64,000 bases of DNA from Escherichia phage A221, in the sequence record ON862890.1; one strand, written 5' to 3'. Shown here one piece after another: positions 151 through 58,957 of the stretch. Every line of letters starts with the position of its first letter. Position 1 is the stretch's first letter. A program made the translations under genes and the position numbers. The notes beneath the pieces were generated by a model. That model worked only from the letters and a program-made list of their open reading frames with translations. It was not told the origin of the DNA and did no database searches.

Positions 151-375
151 ATGTACTTGAAAAAGATCGTGAAGAAGCCGAAAGCCGGTGTTGCCGAGGT
201 GTGCCTCATCGAGGTTTACGTTGATTCTTGTAACAATGAGCAGTGTTACTTCATGGTCGAGACGATGGTGTATGTTCCAGCCTCTCACCTGAACCGTGAT
301 TTCGTCACAACCGAAAATGTCGTCCGCTGGGAGATTGCAACGCAGTCCGATATCGACGAACACAACATTCTTTGA
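151..375 (+). CDS. hypothetical protein (74 aa)
   Basis: ORF track; GAGGG 7 nt upstream of ATG; preceded by GC hairpin 102-128. Confidence 0.4.
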   Translation: MYLKKIVKKPKAGVAEVCLIEVYVDSCNNEQCYFMVETMVYVPASHLNRDFVTTENVVRWEIATQSDIDEHNIL

Positions 376-392
376 AAGGAAGGATCTATATC

Positions 393-836
393 ATGTGTGA
401 TAAGAATTTCATTTTCATTAGTCCCGCCAAGAAACAGTTCTTCCGTAGCTCCGTTGGGGACAAGGTGGAAGGTTTCCGTAAATTCAAAGATTATCGCCTG
501 GCATGCGGTGATGTTGATTTTCAGAGCTTCGACAATGATCGCCAGGATTTGAACGATGAGGGTTGGACAGAAGTTCCATCCCCACAGTTTATCGATGTCA
601 AGCTGTACTACATGAAGGACAGTGGGAAGTATTATTCAGAGGGTGTGATCAAAATCAACCGTGGGGAGGCCGAGGCCGAACCTGCTAAGTCCTGGATGGA
701 GACTGTGGATAAAATCCGCTATCTGCTCGACTCAGGCAATTTGCCTGGTTTGGTTAAAGGTGCCCGGTACGAGGTCTTCGTGACCGGAGAAGGGCATCCA
801 GGTGGTTATCCACAACTGTTCCGCATTAACAACTGA
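393..836 (+). CDS. hypothetical protein (147 aa)
   Basis: Internal ATG of ORF 372-836 chosen because it carries the conserved AGGA-TCTATATC-ATG initiation motif. Confidence 0.5.
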   Translation: MCDKNFIFISPAKKQFFRSSVGDKVEGFRKFKDYRLACGDVDFQSFDNDRQDLNDEGWTEVPSPQFIDVKLYYMKDSGKYYSEGVIKINRGEAEAEPAKSWMETVDKIRYLLDSGNLPGLVKGARYEVFVTGEGHPGGYPQLFRINN

Positions 837-2030: not shown

Positions 2031-2070
2031 CATACCATAAATAATTGAATACACACAGCGGAGATACATC

Positions 2071-2241
2071 ATGTTTGTCGTCATCAATCTGTTCTGTTAT
2101 ATCTTCACGGCGTACTTCTTGGGCGCGGTAGGGATCGAGACCTACAATGACCTGAAGGATGGGGAATACGCCAACCGAATGGTTTATGTCAAGAAGTTTG
2201 TTCGTAAGTTCTGGTCCAACTTCGTTTACAAACTACCATGA
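2071..2241 (+). CDS. small hydrophobic protein (56 aa)
   Basis: Translated by hand: MFVVINLFCYIFTAYFLGAVG...; GGAG 8 nt upstream; stop overlaps next ATG (ATGA). Confidence 0.35.
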   Translation: MFVVINLFCYIFTAYFLGAVGIETYNDLKDGEYANRMVYVKKFVRKFWSNFVYKLP

Positions 2242-4698: not shown

Positions 4699-5445
4699 AT
4701 GGCATCTCTCCAGGATCTACGCAAGCTGAATGACTTCGAAAACCGTCATTACACATTTCAGCAATACGAACTTCCTCATAAGGAACTGGAGTGTGTTACG
4801 ACGGAGAATGGTCGTCATTACGTTTCACCGTCTGGTGTAAAACTGACATCCGTCACGACTATGCTGGGGCGCACTGGAGATCATGAATGGCTTGAGTCTT
4901 GGAGGAAGAAGCTGGGCGCAGAGGCCGCTGACCTTGAGACCATGCGCTGTGCTGACCGAGGGGAGAAGCTGCACCTTGCGTGTGAACTGTATCTAAAGAA
5001 CCGCCCAATGAAAGAAGTGTTGGAAGCGGCTGGCGAATACATGTTCATGTTCAAGCAGCTGTTCCCTTACCTGAACAAGATGACAAAGATCTATGCTCAG
5101 GAGATCCCATTATATAGTGAGGTGCTTGGTCTTGCAGGTCGTGTAGACCTTATCGGGGTTTATGAGGGTAAACCTGCTGTCATCGACTTCAAGACATCGA
5201 ACACCATGAAGACGCGGGGCATGATCGAGGATTACAGTATCCAGCTGTGCTTATATTCGGTCATGTTCCAGCAGATGTTCGGCGTCAAGATCACCCGCCT
5301 CATCAACGTGATTGCCAACGAGTCTTCCCCTCTACCAACCGTCATTGAGTTCAACCGTGATGACATTCTGACAAAGATGTTTGAGCGTGTTCGTCTGTAT
5401 CATCGCATGGATAAAGAACAAAACGGAGTCTGGCCGGATCACTAA
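4699..5445 (+). CDS. PD-(D/E)xK-type nuclease (RecB/Cas4-like fold)
   Basis: GAGGA RBS; motif GRVDLIG...VIDFKTS resembles D...(I/V)DxK nuclease core. Confidence 0.5.
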   Translation: MASLQDLRKLNDFENRHYTFQQYELPHKELECVTTENGRHYVSPSGVKLTSVTTMLGRTGDHEWLESWRKKLGAEAADLETMRCADRGEKLHLACELYLKNRPMKEVLEAAGEYMFMFKQLFPYLNKMTKIYAQEIPLYSEVLGLAGRVDLIGVYEGKPAVIDFKTSNTMKTRGMIEDYSIQLCLYSVMFQQMFGVKITRLINVIANESSPLPTVIEFNRDDILTKMFERVRLYHRMDKEQNGVWPDH

Positions 5446-5473
5446 ATACCCCATAATCCTTGGGAGATTTTGT

Positions 5474-7598: not shown

Positions 7599-7731
7599 TC
7601 CATAAATGCCGAAGGCATTTATTAATAACGCGTAGCGCAATTTGCCACTTGTTCTATAAGCAAAACACAGCGATACTAGATTGCGTCAAACATGACTTGA
7701 ACCCCCCACTATATTTTGAGGATACATACAA

Positions 7732-9927: not shown

Positions 9928-10392
9928 ATGGCGCGTAATACGCTAGACATATTGAATATTTCAGCAGTCAACGATGAGGCCAGCATCGTTGATTGTATGG
10001 TTGAAGTTCAATTGAACCAAGATCGGCCAGGTATATTCCTGGGGATCAAGGAAACACTGAGTCGAATTGGGGTAAACACGCGCCAAGAGCCGAATACTCT
10101 GTATCAGACTTGCCATATTCTTCATAAGTGTGGCAAGTATTATATCGTCCACTTTAAGCATCTATTTATGCTGGACGGGCATTACAACGGATTTAACCGC
10201 GAAGATGTCCTGAGGATGAACCGAATCATCAAACTGCTGGAGCAGTGGAACATGGTGAAGGTCATTCATCCTGAACAGGTCACCGAAGCAGCCGATATGT
10301 CTCGCATTAAAGTGGTTAAACACGATCAGGTTCCTGAATGGAAACTGGTTCCAAAATACATCATCCGGCCTACGAAGGCAAAAAGCGAATAA
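9928..10392 (+). CDS. regA: RegA translational repressor
   Basis: LYQTCHILHKCGKYYIVHFKHL and C-terminal EWKLVPKYIIRP match T4 RegA; AAGGGG RBS; alternative start at 9997. Confidence 0.8.
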   Translation: MARNTLDILNISAVNDEASIVDCMVEVQLNQDRPGIFLGIKETLSRIGVNTRQEPNTLYQTCHILHKCGKYYIVHFKHLFMLDGHYNGFNREDVLRMNRIIKLLEQWNMVKVIHPEQVTEAADMSRIKVVKHDQVPEWKLVPKYIIRPTKAKSE

Positions 10393-11281: not shown

Positions 11282-11349
11282 GATATACAGTTATTCACTA
11301 AACAACAGAGGCTATAATGGCCTCTGTTTTCGTATTCTAAGAGGATACC

Positions 11350-12570: not shown

Positions 12571-12684
12571 AGATTCCCTTTACTTCGTTCTTCAATAACT
12601 CAATCCAGCGTATATTGACCTCACTTAAACGAAGCGCCCTGGCAAACGGGGCGCACATTTGAACTGAAACAGGAAGATTACATC

Positions 12685-14703
12685 ATGTCAGATTTTAAGC
12701 CCTTCGCAGTAGCTGTCAACAATAACGTGCTGGCCATGTCAGCAACTGGTCTGTTCATGACCAACATCGATAAAGATGCTCTGTGGGATCTGTATCTGTC
12801 TTCTTTCCCTGCTGGCACTAACCCGCTTTATCGTGAGCGTACCGAGCACGACTGCACCTGCTGTAAACAATTCATCCGTAACATCGGCGGTGTGGTCACC
12901 ATCGACTCCGACCTGAACGTGATCTCTATTTGGGATAACATTCAGCTGGGTAACGAATACGACGTTGTCGCTGCGGCGCTGTCAGCGTATGTTAAGCAGC
13001 ACGCAATCGTCGACGTGTACTTCAACGACACCAAGAAAGTTGGTGTTGAGTCGAATCACGAAATGAAAGACGGTATTGTCCGCACCTACAACCACTTCCA
13101 CACCGACCTGCTGGGCAGCTATGTTCTGCGGGCAGATACCATCGCTTCTAAGAAGGGTGAAATCCGCCAGGCGATTGAAGTGTTTGAGCGCGGCCTGCGT
13201 GAACTGTCTCTGGAATCGGCTGAAATCGTTCTTGAATTGATTGACCAGAATTCTCTGTATCGCGGTGAAGAGCACAAAGAGGCAGTGCAGGCGTTCGTGG
13301 TGAACAAGACCCTGTACGAACAAACTGCAGAAGAGAAACGCGCTCTGTGGGCTTGGCGCACTGGCTACCGTGCAAACGGTCATACCCCTCACGGCATTCG
13401 TAATACCGTGATTGGCTCTCTGCTGGTAGACCTCAATGAAGGCCGGGATCTGGAAACCGCCGTGAAGTCCTTTGAAGCCAAAGTCGCTCCGACGAACTAC
13501 AAGCGCCCAACCGCGCTGGTCACGAAGTCGATGATTGAAAACGCGCAGAAAGAAGTCGAAGCGCTGGGTCTGACTGATTCACTGGGTCGCCGTTATGCCG
13601 TGTATGACGATCTGACCATCAACAACGTTCTGTTCGCCGATCTGGCAGCTCAGAAGAAGATGGACCCGTTTGCTCAGCTGGCGTCTGAAGTGAAGACTCC
13701 GACCAAGTCCCTGGACAAGGTTGAAGAGATCACGATCGACGACTTCCTGACCAACGTGTTGCCAAAGGCGCATTCCCTGGAAGTACTGGTTGAAAACTCT
13801 CACATTGGCAACCTGATGTCCCTGATCGCTCCGGCTACCGCAGGCGCTCCTAACCTGTTCAAGTGGAACAACGGCTTCAGCTGGTCTTACAATGGCGAAG
13901 TGGCCGACTCTATCAAAGAGCGCGTAAAGACCGCAGGCGGCAATGTCGACAGTTTCCTCCGTGTGTCACTGGCTTGGCATAACAACGACGACCTGGATCT
14001 GAGCATGAACGATCCTCTTCACAACCACGTGTATTATCACAACCGTCGTTCGACAACTGGCGCAACTCTGGACATCGACATGAACGGTATGGACGGCATT
14101 GATCCAAACCGCCGTCCGGTGGAGAACATCTTCTTCAGCGATGAACGCAAGCTGCGTGATGGTCTGTACGAGTTCTATGTCACTAACTTCAGCCAGCGTG
14201 AAACCTGTGATATGGGATTCGAAATCGAAGTTGAATACAAAGGCCAGACCAAGCGTTTTTCGCATCCTGGCCTGAAGCACAAAGATCGCACTCTGGCTGT
14301 TGTGATTGATGTCCGCGCTGGACAAGTGGTAGACATCCGTTCTACCCTGAAAGACGACGCTCGCTCTCAGGAAATCTGGGGCATCAAGACCTCCGTCTTC
14401 CAGAAGGTACAGCTGGTTCTGAACTCACCAAACCATTGGGACGGCGAGCAGACTGGCAACAAGCACGTGTTCTTCATCCTGGAAGGTTGTGCTAACCCTG
14501 TCGGCACCCGTGGTTTCTATAACGAATATCTGAAGCCGGAACTTGATAAACACCGCAAGGTTTTTGAAATGTTAGGTGGTAAGATTAAAGTACAGCCAAG
14601 CACTGAGCAGCTGTCCGGTCTGGGCTTCTCTACCACCCAACGCAACCACGTGTTCGTGAAGGTGAGCGGCTCGTTCAACCGCACTGTGAAAGTTGTGTTC
14701 TAA
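12685..14703 (+). CDS. hypothetical large protein (672 aa)
   Basis: ORF track; AGGAAGATTACATC-ATG initiation motif; no polymerase, ligase or ATPase motifs seen. Confidence 0.6.
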   Translation: MSDFKPFAVAVNNNVLAMSATGLFMTNIDKDALWDLYLSSFPAGTNPLYRERTEHDCTCCKQFIRNIGGVVTIDSDLNVISIWDNIQLGNEYDVVAAALSAYVKQHAIVDVYFNDTKKVGVESNHEMKDGIVRTYNHFHTDLLGSYVLRADTIASKKGEIRQAIEVFERGLRELSLESAEIVLELIDQNSLYRGEEHKEAVQAFVVNKTLYEQTAEEKRALWAWRTGYRANGHTPHGIRNTVIGSLLVDLNEGRDLETAVKSFEAKVAPTNYKRPTALVTKSMIENAQKEVEALGLTDSLGRRYAVYDDLTINNVLFADLAAQKKMDPFAQLASEVKTPTKSLDKVEEITIDDFLTNVLPKAHSLEVLVENSHIGNLMSLIAPATAGAPNLFKWNNGFSWSYNGEVADSIKERVKTAGGNVDSFLRVSLAWHNNDDLDLSMNDPLHNHVYYHNRRSTTGATLDIDMNGMDGIDPNRRPVENIFFSDERKLRDGLYEFYVTNFSQRETCDMGFEIEVEYKGQTKRFSHPGLKHKDRTLAVVIDVRAGQVVDIRSTLKDDARSQEIWGIKTSVFQKVQLVLNSPNHWDGEQTGNKHVFFILEGCANPVGTRGFYNEYLKPELDKHRKVFEMLGGKIKVQPSTEQLSGLGFSTTQRNHVFVKVSGSFNRTVKVVF

Positions 14704-18998: not shown

Positions 18999-19029
18999 TC
19001 CCCAACAAACGTTGGGGATTTTTACTTTT
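18999..19029 (+). terminator. rho-independent terminator
   Basis: Stem TCCCCAAC/GTTGGGGA followed by TTTTTACTTTT. Confidence 0.65.
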
Positions 19030-19034
19030 AGGGG

Positions 19035-19063
19035 TTTACTTCCTCTAAGGAATGTCCTATTAT
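19035..19063 (+). promoter_or_regulatory. sigma70-like early promoter (TTTACT-N17-TATTAT)
   Basis: Exact 17-bp spacing; directly downstream of terminator. Confidence 0.45.
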
Positions 19064-19114
19064 TCAATAACTGGCGAACGATGGGTTCACCGGGTTGAAA
19101 GGTAAGATTATATC

Positions 19115-19354
19115 ATGAAGAACAAAATGGTCGAAACTTCAGTAGAGATTGATCGCAATTGGGGATTGCTCCGCGCTAAAGGGTTCCGTCGTGTGTATGC
19201 GACCAAAGAAGTCTACGCACAGCGCCGTGACGTTATCATCAGCAAGAAAGGCAAAGAGTGGGTTGCTGAAGAAGTTGATGTCGAGACAGGCATCGTAGGA
19301 AAGGTAAAGGCCAAGGCCGTGATCCTCTTCGCTCTTCTGAAGCACATCAGTTAA
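19115..19354 (+). CDS. hypothetical protein (79 aa)
   Basis: TTGAAAGGTAAGATTATATC-ATG initiation motif. Confidence 0.45.
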   Translation: MKNKMVETSVEIDRNWGLLRAKGFRRVYATKEVYAQRRDVIISKKGKEWVAEEVDVETGIVGKVKAKAVILFALLKHIS

Positions 19355-19413
19355 TTCTATAACTTTGGGCGGGGTATGATTACCCCGTCTATTTGAAACC
19401 AAGAGACTATATC

Positions 19414-19788
19414 ATGAAAAAGTTAATCCTCGCTGTTGCCCTGCTGGGCGCTTCCTTTGCTGCTGTTTCCGCCCCTCCTGTCATCACCGGAGTGTCTACC
19501 AACGGTGTTTATGCTTTCAAGGCGTATGGCCAAGACCTCGTTCTGTATAAGAACGGGAAGATGATTGAGCGCTGCGTATCAGACGACGTGAATCGTGGGA
19601 TCGACAATCAGGGTAGCCCATACGTCCTGGACATCTATTCCTGCTCCAACGGGACGAAGTCCTTTGGCGTCAAGACCTTTGGCAACGTCGCCGACGGTGG
19701 CTGGGGCTTCATGTTCGAAACCCGCAACCACCACCCGGTCAAGACCATGCAAGAAGAGTTCTTGATCTCTGTCGGGGGTACGTTATGA
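19414..19788 (+). CDS. secreted protein (signal peptide)
   Basis: N-terminal MKKLILAVALLGASFAAVSA; conserved AGAGACTATATC-ATG motif. Confidence 0.5.
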   Translation: MKKLILAVALLGASFAAVSAPPVITGVSTNGVYAFKAYGQDLVLYKNGKMIERCVSDDVNRGIDNQGSPYVLDIYSCSNGTKSFGVKTFGNVADGGWGFMFETRNHHPVKTMQEEFLISVGGTL

Positions 19789-20264: not shown

Positions 20265-20714
20265 ATGTTCCTTACATCTTTTATTGACTGGTTGAACATC
20301 ATTAACGGCCTGAGGATTCCTGTTGGGAACCTCGGGCTTTCTCGTTCTTCTATGCCGCAAATCGATGCCGACAAACAAGAAGATTTTCACAAATATCTTG
20401 AAGACAACGGCGTGTCCATAGATGCTGTGCAAGTGCCCATCAAAATGCTTCGTCTCACCCAGAACGAAATCAACAAGATGAAGGTCTGGAAGATCATGAA
20501 GAACATCAGAAATAAGAAACCTATGGGTCGAGTTTGGGTGTCTTCTGACAATTACGTTGTTGACGGTTCTCACCGATTTGTCGCTGCGTTGAACATGGAC
20601 GGCAAACAGCGCATGAAGGTCTACAAAGTTGATTTGCCAGCGATGGAATTTGTTAAACTCGCTAAACAGTTTCAGGGTGTGCGATACAGAACGGTCTCAG
20701 ATTCGAGATACTAA
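20265..20714 (+). CDS. hypothetical protein, possible ParB-like nuclease domain
   Basis: GAGGTG RBS; motif VVDGSHRFVAAL resembles ParB/Srx DGxHR; weak. Confidence 0.45.
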   Translation: MFLTSFIDWLNIINGLRIPVGNLGLSRSSMPQIDADKQEDFHKYLEDNGVSIDAVQVPIKMLRLTQNEINKMKVWKIMKNIRNKKPMGRVWVSSDNYVVDGSHRFVAALNMDGKQRMKVYKVDLPAMEFVKLAKQFQGVRYRTVSDSRY

Positions 20715-20715
20715 T

Positions 20716-21549
20716 ATGGACGTCTATTCAGAACTTATCGAAATAGGAGCGAAACGTCATTTCGTAAACAAATATCTTTCGCTCATTTCTTCTTTTAGTC
20801 ATTACCAAGGCGTCGGGGAGAAGCATCACATATTACCTGTGGCATTGTTCCCCGAATATGCCACGGAATACGAAAACATCGTCAAACTGCCTCATAGGGT
20901 TCATTATATTGCCCATGTGTGTCTTGCTCTTGCGTTACCAGGTTCATGTATGGTAAATGCGATTATGATTTTGAAGCGGTTAGATAGTAGAGTCAACTCA
21001 CACCTGTTTGCGAAAATGCGCAAGAGATTCGCCGAAAGGCTTTCTGTGGTGAATGCAGGGGAAAATAATCCCATGTATGGCAAGAAGAGATCCCAGAAGG
21101 CAAAGAAAAAGACCTCGGAGTCTCTTAGAAATTTTTATAAATCTAAAAGAAAAGAAGATCCAGATTTAAAAGAATTTTTCTCGGAAAGGAATTCTAAAAT
21201 AAAACGGGGAAAAGATCACCATTCTTATGGGAATAAATTGACCAATAATCTTACTCCAGAACAAGAACGATGTAGAATAGAATCGGTCACCAAGACTTCC
21301 CGTGAAACCATGCCCTGGGAGAAGCCAAGATGGAAACCAGAAAGGGACAAATGGTGGTGTTGGGCTGCACATATACACTATCACATATTGAAAGGTAAGA
21401 CGAGAGGGGAAGCCCTGAAACAAGTATTCGGTTCCAATGACGCAGAAATTTGGGCACAGGTTCGGCCAATTATTCTACGGTTGGATAACGGTTGGGACCC
21501 TTTAACTTGCGAAAAATGGGTTAATCGTTATGGGGTGGAATACCAGTAA
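20716..21549 (+). CDS. HNH-family homing endonuclease with NUMOD-like repeats
   Basis: HHILPVALFPEY...LPHRVHYIAH HNH core; ENNPMYGKK and HHSYGNK repeats; AT-rich segment around 21100-21260. Confidence 0.65.
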   Translation: MDVYSELIEIGAKRHFVNKYLSLISSFSHYQGVGEKHHILPVALFPEYATEYENIVKLPHRVHYIAHVCLALALPGSCMVNAIMILKRLDSRVNSHLFAKMRKRFAERLSVVNAGENNPMYGKKRSQKAKKKTSESLRNFYKSKRKEDPDLKEFFSERNSKIKRGKDHHSYGNKLTNNLTPEQERCRIESVTKTSRETMPWEKPRWKPERDKWWCWAAHIHYHILKGKTRGEALKQVFGSNDAEIWAQVRPIILRLDNGWDPLTCEKWVNRYGVEYQ

Positions 21550-21643
21550 ACCACCCGTTTCTGAATACGATAGTTTATTGAATCCCTTTACTCATCATGG
21601 TGAGCCGCCTATCATTTCATCCAATGAAATAAGGAGAATCACC

Positions 21644-22692: not shown

Positions 22693-23562
22693 GTGATGCT
22701 CCTGACCAAAACAATCGCTGCGGCGATTATCGAAAAGAATAAGGCTTTTGCCCCCAACGCAGCCAAAGTTATGTTGGTACACGAAGACGCTCGCGTGATC
22801 TTCGCCGAGAAGTTCGAGATGGGCGCGAAGTTCTGGTATGCCGACAACTTACGTGAGAGCAAACTTCAGGGTATCATCCACAAACTGACTCTGGTCGCCA
22901 AGCGTAATGACCAGGGTGACTGGGTCGGCGTTTCTGACTTCAGTACGAAGATCACCCCAAAGGCTCCGCTTTCTCGTCAAGAGCGCATTCTACAAGCCCA
23001 GGAAAAGCTGCGTGCGGCTCGGAGTACTCCAAAGGCGAAACCAGATGCAAGCCCTGTCATCAAGCCAGCGGTTGTTCCTAAGTCCAAATACCTCCCTCCC
23101 GTGAGTCAAAAGGCTGTGGAGCAATTGGTTGAGAAGCGCAAGGGTGACGTTGTGATGAAGTCTGACTCTTCAGTGGAGCCGTTCAAGCCGGATCCAGCAG
23201 AAGTACAGGCACTAGCAGAAAAGGTAAAGAATTCACAATTCATTTCCCTGCGTGAACTTGAACCGCCTACTCGCCGTCGTGTCGCCAACGAGCTGTTTGT
23301 GTCGTTCAGGTCGGATGGCAAGATCGTCCTGTGCAAAGCCCTGCGCGATGCAATCCCTTGGACAACTCTGAACATGATGGTCACTCGCGACTTCAAGCGT
23401 TTTGGTATCATGCAAGGCAAGGACTACAACGTCAACCAGAGCGGGACTTATGTTAATCGCGCCATGTGCGACAAATTGACCTTCCCAGAAGACACCGGAA
23501 CGATCCGTGTCGTTCTGAATTGGGATGACAATCTGAACATGTATGTTGGCGATTTCCAATAA
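22693..23562 (+). CDS. hypothetical protein (289 aa)
   Basis: ORF track; GTG/ATG start region with AAGGAA upstream. Confidence 0.5.
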   Translation: MMLLTKTIAAAIIEKNKAFAPNAAKVMLVHEDARVIFAEKFEMGAKFWYADNLRESKLQGIIHKLTLVAKRNDQGDWVGVSDFSTKITPKAPLSRQERILQAQEKLRAARSTPKAKPDASPVIKPAVVPKSKYLPPVSQKAVEQLVEKRKGDVVMKSDSSVEPFKPDPAEVQALAEKVKNSQFISLRELEPPTRRRVANELFVSFRSDGKIVLCKALRDAIPWTTLNMMVTRDFKRFGIMQGKDYNVNQSGTYVNRAMCDKLTFPEDTGTIRVVLNWDDNLNMYVGDFQ

Positions 23563-23618
23563 TCAATAACCTCGGGCGGCTTATCATAAAGCTGCCCTTT
23601 CATTTGAGTGACTATATC

Positions 23619-24281
23619 ATGGAAAAACTTTATTCTATTATCGTCGGTCCTGATCCTGACGGATTATTCTTCGCCCCGTTGTCTTATATTGCCCACGCCC
23701 GTATCGGTAGCTATTACGCATATTGCACACGTGGCCACGACGGTTCCAATATCCTCCATTATAGCCGCCTGAACGATTTCCTGGCACTTCAACCAGAAGA
23801 TGTTGTGCTGGCGCGTCGCGTGTTCATCGACTTCAACGCGATGCACAACAACGAAATCGACGCTCGCTATCATGCCATGCGTTCTATGGAAGGGGGAGAC
23901 TGCATTTATCGTATCGACCATTTTAGTGAGTTTACCGAATGTATTGATTGGTTTATCTCTGATAAAGTGATGGGTGAAAGAATCGTCACAACTCCGTGGG
24001 CGCATGCGGAACAACTTCGTGTGTCTACCGATGCGTACAAAGAAGTCGAAAATCTGTGCAACAAGTTCCGCATCTCGGTGGCCTGTAATCAAGACCTGGG
24101 CGAAGAGATACAATGGACAGCTGAGTCTCCTCATTTCAGTGGCCTGGTGATGACGGCCGAAACCCGTTCCCGTGCTGTTGTCCAGTTAGTACTCTGGGCG
24201 TTCTACCAGCGCACCCCGTTCTCATACATGGGGCAGAAAGAGATTGATGAACTCCTGAAGTCTCATGCGGTGGAGGTGTAA
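23619..24281 (+). CDS. hypothetical protein (220 aa)
   Basis: Internal ATG carrying GTGACTATATC-ATG motif. Confidence 0.5.
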   Translation: MEKLYSIIVGPDPDGLFFAPLSYIAHARIGSYYAYCTRGHDGSNILHYSRLNDFLALQPEDVVLARRVFIDFNAMHNNEIDARYHAMRSMEGGDCIYRIDHFSEFTECIDWFISDKVMGERIVTTPWAHAEQLRVSTDAYKEVENLCNKFRISVACNQDLGEEIQWTAESPHFSGLVMTAETRSRAVVQLVLWAFYQRTPFSYMGQKEIDELLKSHAVEV

Positions 24282-27738: not shown

Positions 27739-27773
27739 AGTTTCATTCCTCTTTCTATAAAACCAGTTTGGGA

Positions 27774-27781
27774 TATTTATA
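27774..27781 (-). promoter_or_regulatory. T4-type late promoter core TATAAATA
   Basis: Exact octamer on minus strand upstream of minus gene 26971-27738. Confidence 0.45.
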
Positions 27782-27783
27782 TC

Positions 27784-28311
27784 ATGATAGAAATTTATTC
27801 TGACGGGGGTTCTAACCCGAAGACCAACCAGGCCGCAGGATGGGCATTTGTCATCAGGCCAATAACGGGTATGCAATGGAAGGTGTTCTTCGGTCATCTA
27901 CCTCCCCCGTCCACTAACAATATCGCCGAGTTGTTGGGTGTGACCAACGCATTGAAGCTACTGTGGGCATTCTCAGGAAAGGGTGAGCGCAGAATACCAA
28001 AGGCAACAATTTGGTCTGACAGCCAATATGCTATCAAGAGCGTCACCGAATGGCGAGCGAAGTGGGAGTATCAGGGTTTCCCAGAAAAGAACGTTGAACT
28101 CATCAAAGATCTGTTCAGAATCTATGATCTCGTTTGTTCAATTTGTGATGTTGAACTAAAATGGGTTAAGGGTCATGCGGGGCACGAAGGCAACGAACTT
28201 GCCGATGACTGGGCCACAGCAGCCAAAAACGACAGCAACTTCCTGATTGAGAATGACAAGATCTCGGTGAAGAAGGTTGTTGGATCTTTTGATGAATTTA
28301 TCGGTATCTGA
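27784..28311 (+). CDS. rnhA: ribonuclease HI (bacterial RnhA type)
   Basis: IEIYSDGG, TNNIAEL, WSDSQYAI, KWVKGHAGHEGNELAD match RNase HI catalytic motifs; TATATC-ATG start motif. Confidence 0.8.
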   Translation: MIEIYSDGGSNPKTNQAAGWAFVIRPITGMQWKVFFGHLPPPSTNNIAELLGVTNALKLLWAFSGKGERRIPKATIWSDSQYAIKSVTEWRAKWEYQGFPEKNVELIKDLFRIYDLVCSICDVELKWVKGHAGHEGNELADDWATAAKNDSNFLIENDKISVKKVVGSFDEFIGI

Positions 28312-33409: not shown

Positions 33410-34024
33410 ATGACGATGACAACGTTGAAGGCCATGGCCTTGTCCGTGACCTTTACCATTGCCAGCGGGAATGTGCACGCTTCCCAAAGTACCACCCAAT
33501 GTGATTATAATTTCTCCGAGCAACAACTTAATACGATGGCAACCGCCTATCACGTAGGCAAGACACAAGATCTTGGCTACACTCTGGCCGCCATATCTTG
33601 GCGTGAGAGCCGCGCTGGCGAAGATGTAGTGTCAATGCGATACGGCCTCAAGGCGGCCAACATGGGAGCCTTTCAGAACAAGGTGAAGACAGTTGGTGAT
33701 CGCGAAGGTTGTAAGAATCGCAAGTGCTATGCCAATGTCGCTATAAAGTTGCTGACCGACCAAGAATATGCCGCGCAAGCCGCCCTCGATGAGATGCAGT
33801 TCTGGCTGACCTATCACAATCAGAATATCCGCAAATCCCTCTCCTCTTACAATGCTGGCTTCGCCCGTAATCCTGCATCGAACGCTTATGCTGCCGACGT
33901 CGTGAAGAAAGCTAAATATCTTCAGAAATGTGTGTCCTTCGAAGGCCGGACCATCTCCGAGGTAGATCCTCAGGTGATCGCCATGAACAAGCACACAATA
34001 GAGAAACTGAAGAGGACAAGATAA
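33410..34024 (+). CDS. secreted protein, possible transglycosylase-like
   Basis: Signal peptide MTMTTLKAMALSVTFTIASGNVHA; ISWRESRAG motif is weak evidence. Confidence 0.5.
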   Translation: MTMTTLKAMALSVTFTIASGNVHASQSTTQCDYNFSEQQLNTMATAYHVGKTQDLGYTLAAISWRESRAGEDVVSMRYGLKAANMGAFQNKVKTVGDREGCKNRKCYANVAIKLLTDQEYAAQAALDEMQFWLTYHNQNIRKSLSSYNAGFARNPASNAYAADVVKKAKYLQKCVSFEGRTISEVDPQVIAMNKHTIEKLKRTR

Positions 34025-34675: not shown

Positions 34676-34700
34676 AAAGGGGCTTTCGCCCCTTTACTTC
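34676..34700 (+). terminator. rho-independent terminator
   Basis: Stem AAAGGGGC/GCCCCTTT, loop TTTC; T-run overlaps next promoter. Confidence 0.6.
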
Positions 34701-34721
34701 TTCAATATCCTTCCCTATACT
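34693..34721 (+). promoter_or_regulatory. sigma70-like early promoter (TTTACT-N17-TATACT)
   Basis: Exact 17-bp spacing; conserved leader follows. Confidence 0.5.
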
Positions 34722-34769
34722 TCATTCCATAAGCAGTACGACACCGACTTGAATAGCAGGAACTATATC

Positions 34770-35045
34770 ATGAAAATTATCCTCGACGCATATATCCGCC
34801 ACGGTCAGAAATACCTGATGGCCAAGGTTTACGACGGCGAAGAATTGATCCACGCCCAGACCGCCCCAGCTGCCCAGCTGCGCGAAATCATGTCACGCGA
34901 CTTCCCTGGCGTTGAAATGGTAGAGCCTGCCAACCAGGCTGAAGTAGACAAAGAGTGGGAGCGCGAATGGAGTCCAGCGGCTATCGCTCGGGCTGAAAAG
35001 AATTGGTCTAACCGCGAAAACGCAAACCGCCCTTTCCGCCGTTAA
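34770..35045 (+). CDS. hypothetical protein (91 aa)
   Basis: CAGGAACTATATC-ATG motif. Confidence 0.5.
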   Translation: MKIILDAYIRHGQKYLMAKVYDGEELIHAQTAPAAQLREIMSRDFPGVEMVEPANQAEVDKEWEREWSPAAIARAEKNWSNRENANRPFRR

Positions 35046-35067
35046 TTTGAACCGAAGGAACTATATC

Positions 35068-35403
35068 ATGACACAACTCAAGAACTTCACCGCCGATGAC
35101 ATGTTTGCCTTCCAGGGTGCTGAGCACTTTGCTGACGGCTCCGTACCTCGCATCTACTACTTCTCCGACGAAGAAATGGAAGATTTCTTCTCCCTGATGG
35201 AAAAGGACTACGAACCAGACGACTTCGTTTATATCATCCATCACGCTGAAGGACTGACATTGGGTTGGACGGCCAACAACGAACCAGAAGAAGTAAACTT
35301 TCCTGAAGGTATCATGTCAGAGCGCGTCGAATATCTACTGGAAGCTCTGGACCCCCACACCCTCCCGCTCTGGGCGATGTCTGTAGCCCAAGTTCAAAAA
35401 TAA
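35068..35403 (+). CDS. hypothetical acidic protein (111 aa)
   Basis: AAGGAACTATATC-ATG motif. Confidence 0.5.
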   Translation: MTQLKNFTADDMFAFQGAEHFADGSVPRIYYFSDEEMEDFFSLMEKDYEPDDFVYIIHHAEGLTLGWTANNEPEEVNFPEGIMSERVEYLLEALDPHTLPLWAMSVAQVQK

Positions 35404-38600: not shown

Positions 38601-38632
38601 ATCCCCCTAAATACAGGGGGATTTCTTTTTCT
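38601..38632 (+). terminator. rho-independent terminator
   Basis: Stem ATCCCCCT/AGGGGGAT followed by TTCTTTTTCT. Confidence 0.7.
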
Positions 38633-38645
38633 GAGGAAACAAATC

Positions 38646-38999
38646 ATGGTTAACGCGAGTATTTTCATCAACCGTGGACTGCTTGCTATAGCCCACTCTC
38701 ATGCCTTACACTTCGTTACAACGTCCTATGCCAAGCACAAGGCACTCGGGGAGTTCTACGGGGAACTGGAGGGCTTGCTGGACACGTTTACCGAAGCATA
38801 CATCGGTGCGGGTGGTCAGTATGTTCCATCATTCGAGAATATTAAATTGTACAACCCAGACCCTATCTCCTATATTAACAGTGTGGTGATAGACGTCGAT
38901 GGCATCTACAAGCAGTGTGACTCCCACCTTCAGAGCACTCTTGACGATATCAAGACACTGTGTTATCAGACGATCTACAAACTGAAGCAGCTGTCGTAA
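38646..38999 (+). CDS. hypothetical protein (117 aa)
   Basis: Start after terminator with GAGGAA RBS. Confidence 0.4.
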   Translation: MVNASIFINRGLLAIAHSHALHFVTTSYAKHKALGEFYGELEGLLDTFTEAYIGAGGQYVPSFENIKLYNPDPISYINSVVIDVDGIYKQCDSHLQSTLDDIKTLCYQTIYKLKQLS

Positions 39000-40598: not shown

Positions 40599-40627
40599 TT
40601 TACTCTTCAATAATGATGCACTATTAT
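40599..40627 (+). promoter_or_regulatory. sigma70-like early promoter (TTTACT-N17-TATTAT)
   Basis: Exact 17-bp spacing, upstream of a codon-optimised gene. Confidence 0.5.
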
Positions 40628-40700
40628 AGTTCACATAGGGCGGCAACACACCGCCGAATGAAAAGTGAAACGCACCAACTACATTATGAGGAATTACATC

Positions 40701-41189
40701 ATGGCTACTACCAAAACTCTGATCACCAACGGCACCATCTCTTTCGAACTGAACACCGAAGTTGCTAAAGTTGAAATGTTCCGCATCGCTCAGGCGGCTG
40801 GCTTCACTGGTGGCAAAACTTCCTTCATGAACCTGCTGAACGGTAAAGTGAAATCGACTAACGGCTTCACCCTGGTAGAGCAGGTTGTGGTTGACAAAGC
40901 TGTGGTTGCTAAGACTGCTGACAAAGTTGGTATGCTGAAAAACCTGGGTCACGACATCCACATTGTCGAAGCAAGCACCGAAACTTACGGCACCATCGTA
41001 GTCGGTAAAGGTCGCATCCAGCTGAACCCGCTGAACAACGGTTCCTTCTCTGTGATGGTCTTCCCTAAGAAGGGGTATGACAACACCGACATCGTGAAAG
41101 CTGTTGGCGGCGAAGCAAAAGCTCAGTACGTCAAAATGGGTAAACTGAGCACCGACGCAGTTGAAGCTCTGGTGAGCAAACTGGCCTAA
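40701..41189 (+). CDS. abundant small protein of unknown function (162 aa)
   Basis: GAGGAATTACATC-ATG motif; codon choice typical of highly expressed genes. Confidence 0.6.
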   Translation: MATTKTLITNGTISFELNTEVAKVEMFRIAQAAGFTGGKTSFMNLLNGKVKSTNGFTLVEQVVVDKAVVAKTADKVGMLKNLGHDIHIVEASTETYGTIVVGKGRIQLNPLNNGSFSVMVFPKKGYDNTDIVKAVGGEAKAQYVKMGKLSTDAVEALVSKLA

Positions 41190-41338
41190 TCCATACGTGT
41201 AACATAGGGGAGGCAACTCCCCCTATCAGGTCTTGGGAGGAGATCACAGTCATTCAATCCTCTTTAGGCGCTCTCTGGGTTGCTGACACATTCAGAACAA
41301 AGTCTCCCCCAGCTCCTCGAGTAGTTCACTTTCACTTT

Positions 41339-41369
41339 AAATACCTCTGCATTCATTGTGGAGGTATTT
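41339..41369 (+). promoter_or_regulatory. hairpin sequestering the endolysin Shine-Dalgarno
   Basis: 9-bp stem AAATACCTC/GAGGTATTT; GGAGG at 41360-41364 lies largely in the 3' arm. Confidence 0.45.
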
Positions 41370-41373
41370 TCTT

Positions 41374-42168
41374 ATGGCCATTCTAAAACTTGGCAACCGT
41401 GGCACTGAAGTGAAGGCACTTCAGGATAGCCTCAACAAAATCGGCTTCACCCTCGTCGCTGATGGTGTCTTTGGCAAGGCAACAGAGAACGCCGTCAAGA
41501 CTGTTCAGGCGGGCGCGGGGCTTGTCATTGATGGTATCGTGGGTCCAAAGACCTCCTATGCTATTCGCAACGCCGGAGACGCCCATCAGGATCATCTAAC
41601 TGAGTCAGACCTGATTGATGCTGCTAACGATCTGGGTGTTGACCTTGCCTCTGTCAAGGCGGTGAATCAGGTTGAGTCGCGCGGCACGGGCTTCACCAAG
41701 TCAGGTAAGATCAAGACATTATTTGAGCGCCACATCATGTATAAGAAGCTGATGGCGAAGTTCGGACAGGCTCGGGCGAATGCCATGGGGCATATGTACC
41801 CGACGTTGGTCAACCCTTCTGCAGGCGGGTACACGGGCGGCGACGCGGAGTTGGATCGACTTCATGCGGCCATCAACATCGATGAGGATTGTGCGTACGA
41901 GAGCGCCTCTTACGGTCTCTTCCAGATCATGGGATTCAACTGCCAGGTCTGTGGATATGCCAACGCCAAGGAGATGTTCAACGACTTCCTGACAGGAGAA
42001 CGTGCTCATTTGATGGCATTCGTGAAGTTCATCAAGGCTGACGCCAAGCTCTGGCAGGCTCTGAAGGACAAGAACTGGGCTGAGTTTGCGCGGCGCTATA
42101 ATGGTCCGGCGTATGCCAAGAACCAGTACGACAAGAAGCTCACAGCAGCATACAAGAGTTTCAGTTAA
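41374..42168 (+). CDS. endolysin: N-terminal peptidoglycan-binding domain + C-terminal muramidase/transglycosylase-like domain
   Basis: LKLGNRGTEVKALQDSLNKIGF...DGVFGKATENAVKTVQ, then SYGLFQIMGFN. Confidence 0.75.
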   Translation: MAILKLGNRGTEVKALQDSLNKIGFTLVADGVFGKATENAVKTVQAGAGLVIDGIVGPKTSYAIRNAGDAHQDHLTESDLIDAANDLGVDLASVKAVNQVESRGTGFTKSGKIKTLFERHIMYKKLMAKFGQARANAMGHMYPTLVNPSAGGYTGGDAELDRLHAAINIDEDCAYESASYGLFQIMGFNCQVCGYANAKEMFNDFLTGERAHLMAFVKFIKADAKLWQALKDKNWAEFARRYNGPAYAKNQYDKKLTAAYKSFS

Positions 42169-46893: not shown

Positions 46894-46920
46894 AAAGCCC
46901 CTCATTGAGGGGCTTTACTT
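46894..46920 (+). terminator. rho-independent terminator
   Basis: 10-bp stem AAAGCCCCTC/GAGGGGCTTT, 3-nt loop; T-run overlaps next promoter. Confidence 0.65.
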
Positions 46921-46942
46921 CTATAATCCCTGCGCTTATACT
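46914..46942 (+). promoter_or_regulatory. sigma70-like early promoter (TTTACT-N17-TATACT)
   Basis: Exact 17-bp spacing. Confidence 0.5.
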
Positions 46943-46992
46943 TCCCAGTAATTCATTGGCATTCGCCACAAATTGAAAGCGGGAACTATATC

Positions 46993-47454
46993 ATGACAAA
47001 CAAAGTACTCACCAACCCACTGCACAACTTCGGTTACATTCAACTCCCTCTGGTGATCGACACCCTGTACGCCGACGACAAAGAAGAGATCTGCTGGTCA
47101 CCCACCGCACTGATTGAACGCGAAATCTTCAAGTCTGTTGTTGATGTCATGTTCCGTATCGGTCGCAATGGACCTCTGGTCTACCTCGGCAAGGTGACTG
47201 AGTTGAAGACAAGCCACAACGAACGCTTCCTTCGTATCGATACAACGGGGTGCTCTCATCAGGACTTCAACACATTGCGCAATTATGTTCTGGTCAACCG
47301 CCCGGTCAGTCAACACCGCCCGTATCTGACTTCAATGCACATCGACAATTTCATCACCGACGTGCACCTCCGCGCCGAAACCCTCCATGAAGAGGAAACA
47401 GGCCGAGCTATCGACACAGTCTTAAATATGGTTGTGATCACCCTGGCGGAGTAG
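46993..47454 (+). CDS. hypothetical protein (153 aa)
   Basis: CGGGAACTATATC-ATG motif. Confidence 0.5.
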   Translation: MTNKVLTNPLHNFGYIQLPLVIDTLYADDKEEICWSPTALIEREIFKSVVDVMFRIGRNGPLVYLGKVTELKTSHNERFLRIDTTGCSHQDFNTLRNYVLVNRPVSQHRPYLTSMHIDNFITDVHLRAETLHEEETGRAIDTVLNMVVITLAE

Positions 47455-53903: not shown

Positions 53904-54002
53904 TTCAATGTAAGATCGGGGTATAATTACCCCGCTTTGTAGCAAACTGAAAATACATGTAACAGAATAGCCCTGAGGGGCGGAAACAGAGGAAATTAAG
54001 AA

Positions 54003-58882: not shown

Positions 58883-58957
58883 ATTTAAGTTCAGAAACTG
58901 TTCAATAGATGAAGGGGTTGCTATAATAGCAGCTCCTTTTGTTTATCGGAGCAGTTT

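What the first reader, a model, noticed from the sequence alone, without database searches (positions are those of the whole stretch)
34749..34772. Conserved translation-initiation motif TTTGAA-N(5-9)-(A)GGAACTATATC-ATG on at least ten genes
Start codons at 393, 12685, 19115, 19414, 23619, 27784, 34770, 35068, 40701 and 46993 (weaker at 1283) are preceded by near-identical AGGA + (C/T)TAT(A/C)TC spacers, often with TTTGAA 10-15 nt further upstream. A Shine-Dalgarno alone does not explain the conserved spacer. It could be the operator of a translational repressor (a RegA homolog is encoded at 9928), a nuclease site or a shared leader structure.
Basis: seen in the sequence. Interest (0 to 1): 0.6.

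Follow-up and report, generated by a model that had tools for sequence, protein, structure and literature searches.

The report
Shared start-site motif of phage genes
About one gene in ten of this Ackermannviridae phage, mostly small genes of unknown function that look like early genes, starts with the same ~24-base ribosome-landing sequence, and related phages swap genes in and out exactly at that sequence.

Summary
TAYATCATG occurs 11 times in the window against 1.0 expected. All copies are on the + strand and all sit at gene starts. Six carry TTGAR 8-11 nt upstream (0.00 expected). The window is an Agtrevirus-like Ackermannviridae phage.

In the complete genome of a 97% relative, 15 of 17 hits are gene starts and none is a structural-gene start. 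The motif, TTGAA-N4-AGGAAC-TAYAYC-ATG, persists across Ackermannviridae genera. Of 41 exact matches in 2.9 million viral contigs, all but 2 lie in contigs of ~152-164 kb or in fragments related to this phage.

It is the 3' end of composite stem-loop plus promoter elements (TTTACT-N17-TAYWMT) that match the PeSL cassettes of T4-type phages. It also stands alone between cistrons. At three slots, unrelated ORFs are fused to the same motif in different phages. Gene 34770-35045 is an indel bounded by two copies.

The motif regions fold no better than shuffled sequence and pair more weakly with the anti-SD than other genes.

Best reading: a standardised translation-initiation module of likely early genes that also serves as a crossover point for gene shuffling. 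A RegA operator is possible but untested and somewhat disfavoured. It is a new variant of a known kind, of moderate interest.

The parts
34749..34772 (+). Full motif TTGAA-tagc-AGGAAC-TATATC-ATG heading gene 34770-35045 (91 aa, PHROG 5704, function unknown)
   Evidence: This is the first gene after the promoter at 34693-34721.
35047..35070 (+). Full motif TTGAA-ccga-AGGAAC-TATATC-ATG between cistrons. It directly follows the TAA stop of gene 34770 and heads gene 35068-35403 (111 aa)
   Evidence: It shares 16 nt (AGGAACTATATCATGA) with the copy at 34758.
34770..35069 (+). Gene cassette (ORF plus downstream linker) bounded by the two motif copies. It is absent from RPN242 and from four of the five IMG/VR relatives aligned
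   Evidence: Overlapping blastn segments at 34773/35044. In the alignment the gap runs from the first motif copy to the second, its exact placement within the shared 16 nt being arbitrary.
34677..34721 (+). PeSL-like head of the element: stem-loop GGGGCtttcGCCCC followed by TTTACT-N17-TATACT (34693-34721). The -10 box lies 49 nt before the ATG
   Evidence: Same consensus as the T4/PST PeSL promoters (PMC4122927).
46973..46995 (+). Motif TTGAA-agc-GGGAAC-TATATC-ATG heading gene 46993-47454 (153 aa)
   Evidence: In Vi01 and other relatives a 77-aa or 121-aa ORF is inserted between this motif and the 153-aa gene.
46895..46942 (+). Stem-loop GCCCCTCattGAGGGGC followed by TTTACT-N17-TATACT (46914-46942)
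19095..19117 (+). Motif TTGAA-aggtaagat-TATATC-ATG heading gene 19115-19354 (79 aa). RPN242 annotates the start 12 nt further downstream
   Evidence: The PHROG 804 profile aligns from residue 1 of the longer ORF.
18999..19063 (+). Stem-loop (18999-19018) followed by TTTACT-N17-TATTAT (19035-19063)
19355..19416 (+). Second cassette type: TTCTAT-N14-TATGAT with a GC stem-loop overlapping the -10 box, followed by TTTGAA-acca-AGAGAC-TATATC-ATG and gene 19414-19788 (124 aa)
   Evidence: The same element heads four unrelated ORFs in relatives.
23562..23621 (+). ATCAAT-N14-TATCAT with an overlapping stem-loop (23574-23597), followed by TTTGAG-tgac-TATATC-ATG and gene 23619-24281 (220 aa)
   Evidence: The orthologous Vi01 site keeps TATATC-ATG with a 1-nt change in spacing.
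12591..12687 (+). TTCAAT-N14-TATATT promoter-like box, a leader hairpin, then TTTGAA-N15-TACATC-ATG and gene 12685-14703 (672 aa, conserved)
40599..40703 (+). TTTACT-N17-TATTAT, a leader hairpin, then AACTACATT-ATG-AGGAAT-TACATC-ATG (a tandem partial repeat of the motif, no TTGAA) and gene 40701-41189 (162 aa)
   Evidence: Identical in Vi01.
372..395 (+). Intercistronic motif TTGAA-agga-AGGATC-TATATC-ATG. The TGA inside TTGAA is the stop codon of ORF 151-375. It heads gene 393-836
2045..2073 (+). Looser copy, TTGAA-N15-TACATC-ATG with a GGAG Shine-Dalgarno, heading gene 2071-2241 (56 aa).
27767..27786 (+). Partial copy, TTTGGGATATTTATATC-ATG, heading the RNase H gene. It overlaps a late-type promoter on the - strand
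   Evidence: The Vi01 orthologue reads cttatac-ATG.
9928..10392 (+). RegA homologue, the candidate trans-acting factor. No link to the motif has been shown
   Evidence: Pfam PF01818, E = 2e-34. 1REG, E = 4e-26; residues T18, R21 and W81 are kept, K14 is G and F106 is H (residue roles from PMC3014915).

Best explanation
The motif is the conserved 3' module (short leader, Shine-Dalgarno, spacer and AUG) of PeSL-like regulatory cassettes in Ackermannviridae. A GC stem-loop ends the upstream transcript. A sigma-70-type promoter like the T4 early promoters (TTTACT-N17-TAYWMT, or TTCAAT-N14-TATAAT with the stem-loop over the -10 box) starts a new transcript. That transcript delivers an unstructured, G-poor initiation region, (A/T)TTGAA-N4-AGGAAC-TAYAYC-AUG, to the first ORF. 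The same roughly 24-nt module is reused as a linker between cistrons.

It gives a class of non-structural, mostly small genes of unknown function a uniform ribosome-loading site. Because near-identical copies flank these ORFs, homologous recombination within the module inserts, deletes and replaces ORFs without disturbing their expression signals.

Shown here: motif statistics, position, orientation, range across phage genera, cassette anatomy, and exchange junctions.

Inferred: promoter activity and early timing, translational effect, and recombination mechanism. It is also inferred, not shown, that the invariant TTGAA and AGGAAC blocks are read by a trans-acting factor.
For: 1. Enrichment and strict placement at gene starts, on the coding strand only.

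2. In the complete RPN242 genome, 13 of 17 strict hits are annotated starts and 2 more are probable true starts. The remaining 2 match the roughly 2.4 I estimate from base composition. No structural-gene start in the 97-133 kb block carries it.

3. Of the 8 intergenic TTTACT-N17-TAnnnT promoters in that genome, 6 drive a motif-bearing first gene. In 4 of them the -10 box lies 49-52 nt before the ATG. In the window, 4 such promoters and 3 of the N14 type precede motif genes, most with an adjacent or overlapping stem-loop. This anatomy and promoter consensus match the published PeSLs, which end in a Shine-Dalgarno sequence and ATG (PMC2839356, PMC4122927).

4. Exchange junctions lie at the motif:
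- Gene 34770 is an indel bounded by two copies.
- The slot upstream of the DNA polymerase gene holds at least 6 unrelated first ORFs behind the same leader and motif.
- The 19414 slot holds 4.
- The 46993 slot gains a 77-aa or 121-aa ORF.
- Families F8, F15 and F16 each occur behind two different upstream contexts joined at the motif.
- Divergent homologues of the 122-aa ORF sit behind paralogous cassettes about 40 kb apart, with nucleotide homology confined to -77..+32.

5. TTGAA, AGGA and CTA.A stay invariant while N4 and the leaders vary, out to the locus whose 40701 orthologue is 53% identical and to Miltonvirus. The exact 24-mer pattern is almost confined to this family.

6. Motif regions are less structured: dG(-30..+20) is -3.6 against -6.0 kcal/mol, p = 6e-4. 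Fold z-scores are near 0.
Against: - No transcript or timing data exist for any Ackermannviridae phage. 'Early' rests on resemblance to the T4 promoter consensus and on absence from structural genes.
- Promoter and terminator calls are consensus matches only. The generic scan of 12-24 kb was not enriched over shuffles.
- Motif-bearing genes are not significantly more often variable than other genes: 4/9 against 12/42, p = 0.44. Several are conserved (12685, 27784, 40701).
- Many indels lie away from the motif.
- Nothing explains why TTGAA at a fixed 4-nt distance from AGGA should be needed for ribosome loading.
- Motif genes pair more weakly with the anti-SD (-4.8 against -6.1 kcal/mol, p = 0.006), so 'optimised for strength' is not obvious.
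- Accessibility of -14..+3 in a wider context is not different (p = 0.45).
- In Miltonvirus the spacer is TACACG, TTTACA or TTCACG rather than TATATC.
Confidence: 0.6

Rival explanations
1. The motif is the mRNA operator of the phage's RegA translational repressor. RegA binds the spacer and AUG, and perhaps TTGAA, of these mRNAs, competes with the 30S subunit, and shuts off this gene class together after the early period.
For: - A genuine RegA homologue lies at 9928-10392, with three of the five T4 RNA-binding residues kept (T18, R21, W81) and two changed (K14 to G, F106 to H). A shifted specificity is therefore conceivable (PMC3014915).
- T4 and RB69 RegA sites are unstructured, A+U-rich, lie at or just 5' of the AUG, and occur on about 30 mRNAs (PMC3014915). 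Here the motif abuts the AUG, is unstructured, and occurs on about 15 genes per genome, or 32 if all ATC-ATG starts are counted.
- A weaker Shine-Dalgarno would help a repressor compete with the ribosome.
Against: - Genes 45, 44, 62 and regA, the conserved RegA targets in T4 and RB69, have no motif here.
- RegA is present in T4-type phages and in Vibrio phage K452, where no equivalent motif class is seen in 40 kb. The motif is confined to enterobacterial Ackermannviridae.
- T4 RegA binds RNA as a monomer and has no known bipartite site.
- No binding data exist.
Confidence: 0.2
2. The motif has no function beyond an ordinary ribosome-binding site. The similarity is a legacy of descent: one linker sequence copied around by cassette duplication and recombination, and kept alike by gene conversion between copies.
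For: - Identical 21-mers occur in different slots, for example TTGAAtagcAGGAACTATATC at slot 34770 in the window and at slot 46993 in other contigs.
- The linker TAATTTGAACCGAAGGAACTATATCATG follows two unrelated ORFs.
- 40680-40703 carries a tandem partial repeat.
- ATC before ATG is a graded preference across the genome: 32 of 194 genes.
Against: - The TTGAA, AGGA and CTA.A blocks stay invariant across genera whose proteins are only 53-70% identical, while adjacent leader bases and N4 have turned over.
- In the divergent 122-aa family, only -77..+32 keeps nucleotide homology.
- Conversion within a genome does not explain identity between genera that infect different hosts.
Confidence: 0.12
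3. The motif is a cleavage site for a phage or host endoribonuclease, acting like T4 RegB with protein S1 at GGAG. Cleavage would inactivate or process these mRNAs at the Shine-Dalgarno sequence.
For: - T4 RegB cuts in the Shine-Dalgarno sequence of many early mRNAs. Its strong sites have an extended consensus, GG*AGRAYARAA, with an invariant GGA (PMC3014915).
- The motif contains an invariant GGA in an unstructured context on a class of likely early genes.
- Some relatives annotate a RegB-family protein.
Against: - The motif reads GGAAC or GGATC followed by a pyrimidine-rich spacer, not GGAG followed by an A-rich tract. Only 2071 has GGAG.
- The ORF annotated as 'RegB' (33416-34021) has no REGB hit in Pfam and only a sub-threshold SLT match.
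- A nuclease site does not explain TTGAA or the strict abutment to the ATG.
Confidence: 0.04
4. TTGAA...TATATC is a promoter, either sigma-70-like or a phage 'middle' type with a -30 box and a -10 box.
For: TTGAA resembles a -35 hexamer and TATATC a -10 hexamer. The known family motif TTCAAT-N14-TATAAT also has a short spacer (PMC7283392).
Against: - The spacer is only 9-10 bp.
- The start site would fall inside the ORF, downstream of the invariant ATG.
- The '-10' box lacks the key final T (it ends in C). In Miltonvirus it is TACACG or TTCACG while TTGAA-N4-AGGAAC is kept.
- CBA120-type phages lack MotA and AsiA (PMC3184105).
- Real promoter-like boxes lie 45-75 nt upstream.
Confidence: 0.02
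5. The motif forms a shared RNA structure or pairs with a phage-encoded antisense RNA.
For: The T/C alternation at three spacer positions would be compatible with pairing to G.
Against: - Fold z-scores are +0.96, -0.18 and +0.30, and motif regions are less structured than others.
- Rfam gives no hit in the window.
- No antisense-oriented copy of the core exists in non-coding DNA of the complete RPN242 genome.
Confidence: 0.02

Closest known systems
PeSL (promoter-early stem-loop) cassettes of T4-type phages (Arbiol et al. 2010, PMC2839356; Comeau et al. 2014, PMC4122927)
   Same: - A composite intergenic element: stem-loop, sigma-70-like promoter, then Shine-Dalgarno and ATG at the 3' end.
- The T4/PST promoter consensus TTTACW-N17-TAYWAT equals the TTTACT-N17-TAYWMT found here.
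- In some copies the stem-loop overlaps the -10 box.
- Many copies per genome, mostly outside the structural modules.
- Flanks small ORFs of unknown function that differ between related phages.
- Published mini-circle crossovers mapped between the -10 box and the ATG, the zone where the junctions lie here.
   Different: - A different phage family. No paper in the library mentions PeSL together with Ackermannviridae.
- Here the most conserved part is not the promoter but a 24-nt initiation module with two invariant blocks, TTGAA and AGGAAC, at fixed spacing.
- That module also occurs without any promoter or stem-loop, as an intercistronic linker (372-395, 35047-35070).
- Promoter and terminator activity and mini-circles are untested here.
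Start-Associated Sequences (SAS) of Cluster K mycobacteriophages (Pope et al. 2011, PMC3203893)
   Same: - A short asymmetric repeat that contains the Shine-Dalgarno core plus conserved bases that cannot pair with 16S rRNA.
- Lies a few nt from the start codon, in one orientation.
- Strong ATG preference.
- Roughly fifteen copies per genome (93 sites identified in the six Cluster K genomes).
- Restricted to non-structural genes and associated with unrelated gene families.
- Specific to one phage group, with function still unknown.
   Different: - Unrelated sequence (GGGATAGGAGCCC), host and phage lineage.
- SAS lies 3-7 bp from the start, whereas this motif abuts the ATG.
- The upstream partner of SAS (ESAS) is a 17-bp inverted repeat, not a 5-nt box.
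- No promoter/terminator cassette context or exchange junctions were described for SAS.
T4/RB69 RegA translational operators (review PMC3014915)
   Same: An unstructured site at or just 5' of the initiator AUG, shared by a minority class (about 30) of early and middle mRNAs. A RegA homologue is encoded nearby in the same 45-44-62-regA gene order.
   Different: - T4 sites are A/U-rich with a poly(A) tract and no sharp consensus (for example AAAUUAUGAUU). Here the consensus is sharp, contains C, and has a second box 20 nt upstream.
- The canonical target genes lack it here.
- Binding is untested.
T4 RegB/S1 cleavage sites (PMC3014915)
   Same: An invariant GGA inside the Shine-Dalgarno sequence of early mRNAs, with an extended 3' context.
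   Different: The RegB consensus GG*AGRAYARAA is not matched, and no supported RegB homologue was found.

Membership tests
PeSL-type regulatory cassette | Composite element in the order stem-loop, sigma-70-like -35/-10 boxes (N17), then Shine-Dalgarno and ATG of the downstream ORF | tested here: met
   Elements at 34677-34772, 46895-46995, 18999-19117 and 40599-40703. Variants with the stem-loop overlapping the -10 box are at 19355-19416 and 23562-23621. Tested at the sequence level only.
PeSL-type regulatory cassette | Multiple copies per genome, concentrated outside the structural-gene modules | tested here: met
   RPN242 has 8 intergenic TTTACT-N17 elements and 12 TTCAAT-N14 elements. Only one lies in the 97-133 kb structural block, ahead of a GIY-YIG endonuclease gene.
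PeSL-type regulatory cassette | Located at insertion, deletion or replacement boundaries between related phages | tested here: met
   Slots 34770/35068, 46993 and 19414. Across all genes, however, the association with variable presence is not significant (p = 0.44).
PeSL-type regulatory cassette | Demonstrated promoter and terminator/attenuator activity | not testable with these tools
   Needs reporter assays or transcript mapping. No Ackermannviridae transcriptome was found.
PeSL-type regulatory cassette | Formation of mini-circles by recombination between flanking elements | not testable with these tools
   Needs inverse PCR on infected cells, as in PMC2839356.
RegA operator | Site overlaps or lies immediately 5' of the initiator AUG and lacks secondary structure | tested here: met
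   The motif abuts the ATG. Fold z-scores are near 0.
RegA operator | Present on the mRNAs of genes 44, 45, 62 and regA itself, the conserved targets in T4 and RB69 | tested here: not met
   Regions upstream of 7732, 8482, 9476 and 9928 lack the motif. The same holds in Vi01.
RegA operator | Specific binding by RegA and repression of initiation-complex formation | not testable with these tools
   Needs gel-shift or filter-binding and toeprint assays.
RegB cleavage site | A GGAG (or GGAU) core followed by an A-rich tract, with a RegB nuclease encoded by the phage | tested here: not met
   The motif reads GGAAC or GGATC plus a pyrimidine-rich spacer. The ORF annotated as 'RegB' gives no REGB hit in Pfam. 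Only 20 proteins were scanned.
Start-Associated Sequence (as a concept) | A group-specific asymmetric repeat containing the Shine-Dalgarno core plus conserved non-pairing bases, in one orientation, next to the starts of a subset of non-structural genes from unrelated families | tested here: met
   This is a functional analogy only: the sequence is unrelated to GGGATAGGAGCCC (PMC3203893).

The most novel reading that the evidence does not exclude
TTGAA-N4-AGGAAC-TAYAYC-AUG is a dedicated bipartite operator read by a phage-encoded post-transcriptional regulator, either RegA with a shifted specificity or an unidentified factor. Through it the phage switches a whole class of early ORFs of unknown function on or off together. 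Because any ORF dropped behind the module is automatically placed under that control, the same sequence would also work as a plug-in socket for acquiring new genes.
Probability: 0.2. Interest if true: 0.7.

Novelty: new variant of a known kind. Interest (0 to 1): 0.5.

Why it matters
Gene regulation in Ackermannviridae is essentially uncharted. These phages are widely used for biocontrol, detection and host-range engineering. The CBA120 genome paper could not identify early promoters (PMC3184105), and a 2024 family review does not mention promoters or translation.

This analysis yields four concrete, testable elements:
- A candidate early promoter class.
- Overlapping terminator/promoter hairpins.
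- A sharply defined initiation module on about 8% of genes.
- Three mapped slots where unrelated ORFs are exchanged with their expression signals intact.

The slots are natural insertion points for engineering payload genes. The ORFs in them are likely host-takeover or anti-defence candidates.

The motif also extends the PeSL idea beyond T4-type phages. It offers an enterobacterial counterpart to the unexplained start-associated sequences of mycobacteriophages, in a host where ribosome and RegA biochemistry are easy to do.

Tried and rejected
- Promoter reading of TTGAA/TATATC. Rejected on spacing, on start-site position, and on the Miltonvirus variants.
- Shared RNA fold. Rejected: no structure beyond shuffled sequence, and no Rfam hit in the window.
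- Trans-acting antisense RNA. No antisense-oriented copy in non-coding DNA of the complete RPN242 genome.
- Tandem duplication as the source of the two copies at 34770 and 35068. Rejected: the two proteins share no similarity.
- RegB. The annotated orthologue has no REGB domain.
- Function of the motif-bearing genes. Pfam gave nothing for the ten scanned, and PHROGs placed all ten in 'unknown function'.
- Test of 'motif genes are more often variable'. Not significant (p = 0.44).
- Extended pairing to the 3' end of 16S rRNA. Considered by eye from memory of the sequence. Only AGGA pairs. Not computed.
- Literature. No Ackermannviridae transcriptome and no earlier description of this motif or of PeSLs in the family were found. 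[quoted passage not shown]
- Two exact pattern matches in unrelated short contigs (L045, L060). Treated as chance or unrelated.
Full report
**Identity of the window.** The 64-kb window is 95-98% identical to Agtrevirus-like Ackermannviridae phages: Escherichia phages RPN242, PC3 and AV101, and Shigella phage Ag3. I transferred gene starts from the annotated RPN242 genome by tblastn. Nearly all genes in the window lie on the + strand. The gene order 45-44-62-regA is as in T4.

**The observation.**
- TAYATCATG occurs 11 times against 1.02 expected. None is on the - strand and all are at gene starts. The eleventh copy, at 2071, had been missed.
- AGGAACTATATCATG with up to 2 mismatches occurs 7 times against 0.14 expected.
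- The composite TTGAR-N8-11-TAYATCATG occurs 6 times against 0.00 expected.
- I assembled the complete RPN242 genome from six fetched stretches. There, 17 strict hits comprise 13 annotated starts, 2 starts that the motif suggests were annotated 12 nt too far downstream, and 2 internal hits. I estimate about 2.4 chance hits from base composition.
- No structural-gene start in the 97-133 kb block carries the motif.
- TTGAR at -24..-18 is tied to the TAYAYY spacer: 7/18 against 5/176, p = 1e-5.
- ATC at -3..-1 is a graded, genome-wide preference: 32 of 194 genes.
- At 27784 the spacer is also the reverse complement of a late-type promoter for the divergent gene, so that copy is partly coincidental.

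**Range across phages.**
- The motif is found at orthologous and non-orthologous gene starts in Vi01 (Kuttervirus) and in 35 IMG/VR loci from contigs of Ackermannviridae size.
- It is also present in a locus from a 164,037-bp contig, the size reported for Erwinia phage Bue1, where the 40701 orthologue is 53% identical. There the spacer reads TAYACC.
- In Serratia phage Kevin (Miltonvirus), ACTTGAA-N4-AGGAAC-T is kept but the spacer reads TACACG, TTTACA or TTCACG.
- Invariant positions are TTGAA, AGGA and CTA.A. The N4 bases, the three Y positions and the upstream leader vary.
- The exact pattern TTGAANNNNAGGAACTAYAYCATG has 41 matches in 2.9 million viral contigs. Thirty-nine lie in contigs of about 152-164 kb or in fragments related to RPN242, and 2 lie in unrelated short contigs.
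- A distant Vibrio phage with the same replication-gene order and a RegA gene has no such motif class in 40 kb.

**Context.**
- Four motif genes in the window are the first gene after a GC stem-loop followed by TTTACT-N17-TAYWMT (19035, 34693, 40599, 46914).
- Three follow TTCAAT-N14-TAnnnT. In two of these the stem-loop overlaps the -10 box (19355, 23562), and in the third a hairpin lies in the leader (12591).
- In RPN242, 6 of the 8 intergenic TTTACT-N17 elements drive a motif gene. In four of them the -10 box lies 49-52 nt before the ATG.
- This is the anatomy of the PeSL cassettes of T4-type phages. The T4/PST consensus is TTTACW-N17-TAYWAT, the stem-loop lies upstream of or over the -10 box, and the Shine-Dalgarno sequence and ATG form the 3' extremity (PMC2839356, PMC4122927).
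- The finding is therefore the 3' module of such cassettes. It also stands alone between cistrons at 372-395 and 35047-35070.

**Exchange junctions.**
- Gene 34770-35045 is missing from RPN242 and from four of the five IMG/VR relatives aligned. The indel is bounded by the two copies that share AGGAACTATATCATGA. The two flanking genes are unrelated.
- Behind the same leader and motif upstream of the DNA polymerase gene, different phages carry unrelated first ORFs of 91, 111, 77, 123, 122 and 128 aa. Sometimes a second ORF follows behind the linker TAATTTGAACCGAAGGAACTATATCATG.
- The hairpin-TTTGAA element at 19355-19416 heads ORFs of 124 aa, 151 aa (the Vi01 copy is annotated endonuclease V), 168 aa and 92 aa.
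- At 46973-46995, a 77-aa or 121-aa ORF is inserted between the motif and the 153-aa gene in other phages.
- Three ORF families occur behind two different upstream contexts that join at the motif.
- Divergent homologues of the 122-aa ORF sit behind paralogous cassettes about 40 kb apart, with nucleotide homology only from -77 to +32.
- In RB49 and phi1, the sequenced mini-circle crossovers lay between the -10 box and the ATG (PMC2839356).
- Across all genes, motif genes are not significantly more variable (p = 0.44), and many indels lie elsewhere. The motif is one route of genome plasticity, not the only one.

**Properties as an initiation region.**
- Motif regions fold less stably: dG(-30..+20) is -3.6 against -6.0 kcal/mol, p = 6e-4. 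The three leaders I folded are no more structured than shuffled sequence.
- Their pairing with the anti-SD is weaker than that of other genes: -4.8 against -6.1 kcal/mol, p = 0.006.
- With AGGA as the paired core, the spacing to the AUG is close to the optimum. This last point is an inference from general knowledge of E. coli initiation.
- A weak Shine-Dalgarno sequence in an open, G-poor context fits a uniform and possibly regulated site. It does not fit a site tuned for maximum strength.

**Candidate trans-acting factors.**
- RegA is genuine. Its known binding mode fits the position of the motif (PMC3014915).
- However, genes 45, 44, 62 and regA lack the motif, and RegA is far more widespread than the motif.
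- The 'RegB' annotation in relatives is unsupported, and the RegB consensus is not matched.
- Promoter, RNA-structure and antisense-RNA readings were tested and rejected.

**Comparison and novelty.**
- The closest known system is the PeSL cassette.
- The closest known analogue of the motif itself is the start-associated sequence of Cluster K mycobacteriophages. That is a group-specific repeat containing the Shine-Dalgarno core, found at the starts of unrelated non-structural genes, and its function is still unknown (PMC3203893).
- I found no description of either in Ackermannviridae.
- I rate this a new variant of a known kind.
- Confidence is high for the observation. It is moderate (0.6) for the reading as a PeSL-type initiation module and exchange junction, and low (about 0.2) for a dedicated operator.

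Noticed in passing
window 2246-2282 and 41338-41376; weaker at 5443-5476 and 38608-38648: The late-type promoter box TAAATACC(CC) forms the 5' arm of a hairpin whose 3' arm contains the Shine-Dalgarno sequence of the next gene (dG -19.5 and -16.1 kcal/mol; z -3.4 and -4.8). Transcripts that start at the late promoter would lack the 5' arm and so free the Shine-Dalgarno sequence, while read-through transcripts would hide it. T4 does this for genes e, soc and I-TevI (recalled from memory).
   Followed up: partly
window 19355-19392, 23562-23597; also 11300-11330, 53915-53940, 58915-58945: GC stem-loops carry a TATAAT-like hexamer in the loop, preceded by TTCAAT 14 nt upstream. This looks like an overlapping terminator and promoter. 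The published family motif TTCAAT[N14]TATAAT appears to be this element.
   Followed up: partly
window 27767-27786 (- strand): ATATAAATATCCC, a late-promoter-like box for the divergent gene starting at 27738, overlaps the initiation region of the RNase H gene. This explains part of the apparent motif match there.
   Followed up: partly
window 20696-21553: An ORF of about 275 aa is present here and absent at this place in RPN242. It is 39% identical to RPN242 gp120, which lies at a different position (between window 12476 and 12563). It looks like a free-standing homing-endonuclease-type insertion, but its family was not checked.
   Followed up: no
window 33416-34021: The orthologue is annotated 'putative RegB' or 'endoribonuclease RegB family' in some relatives and as a lytic transglycosylase in others. 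Pfam gives only a sub-threshold SLT hit (E = 3.7e-4) and no RegB domain.
   Followed up: partly
window 40677-40703: AACTACATT-ATG-AGGAAT-TACATC-ATG is a tandem partial repeat of the motif with two in-frame ATGs 15 nt apart. It is conserved in Vi01 and in most related loci.
   Followed up: no
window 19115 versus 19127; RPN242 29152 versus 29140: The motif, and the PHROG alignment for 19115, suggest that relatives annotate these two genes 12 nt too short at the 5' end.
   Followed up: partly
window 7690-7731 (upstream of the sliding-clamp gene): TTGAA-N7-CTATAT lies upstream of the Shine-Dalgarno sequence rather than around it. This is a rearranged echo of the motif on a classical RegA target gene, and its meaning is unknown.
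   Followed up: no
L045 12026-12049 and L060 2750-2773: Two short IMG/VR contigs with no protein similarity to RPN242 carry an exact 24-nt motif match before the same 112-aa ORF (MQTFQENP...). This may be chance or a gene shared with an unrelated phage.
   Followed up: partly
L083 (Vibrio phage K452) 13674-14093: A 157-kb Vibrio phage has the Ackermannviridae-like order of replication genes and a RegA gene, but uses ordinary, varied initiation regions. Its late-type boxes read CTAAATAtt.
   Followed up: partly
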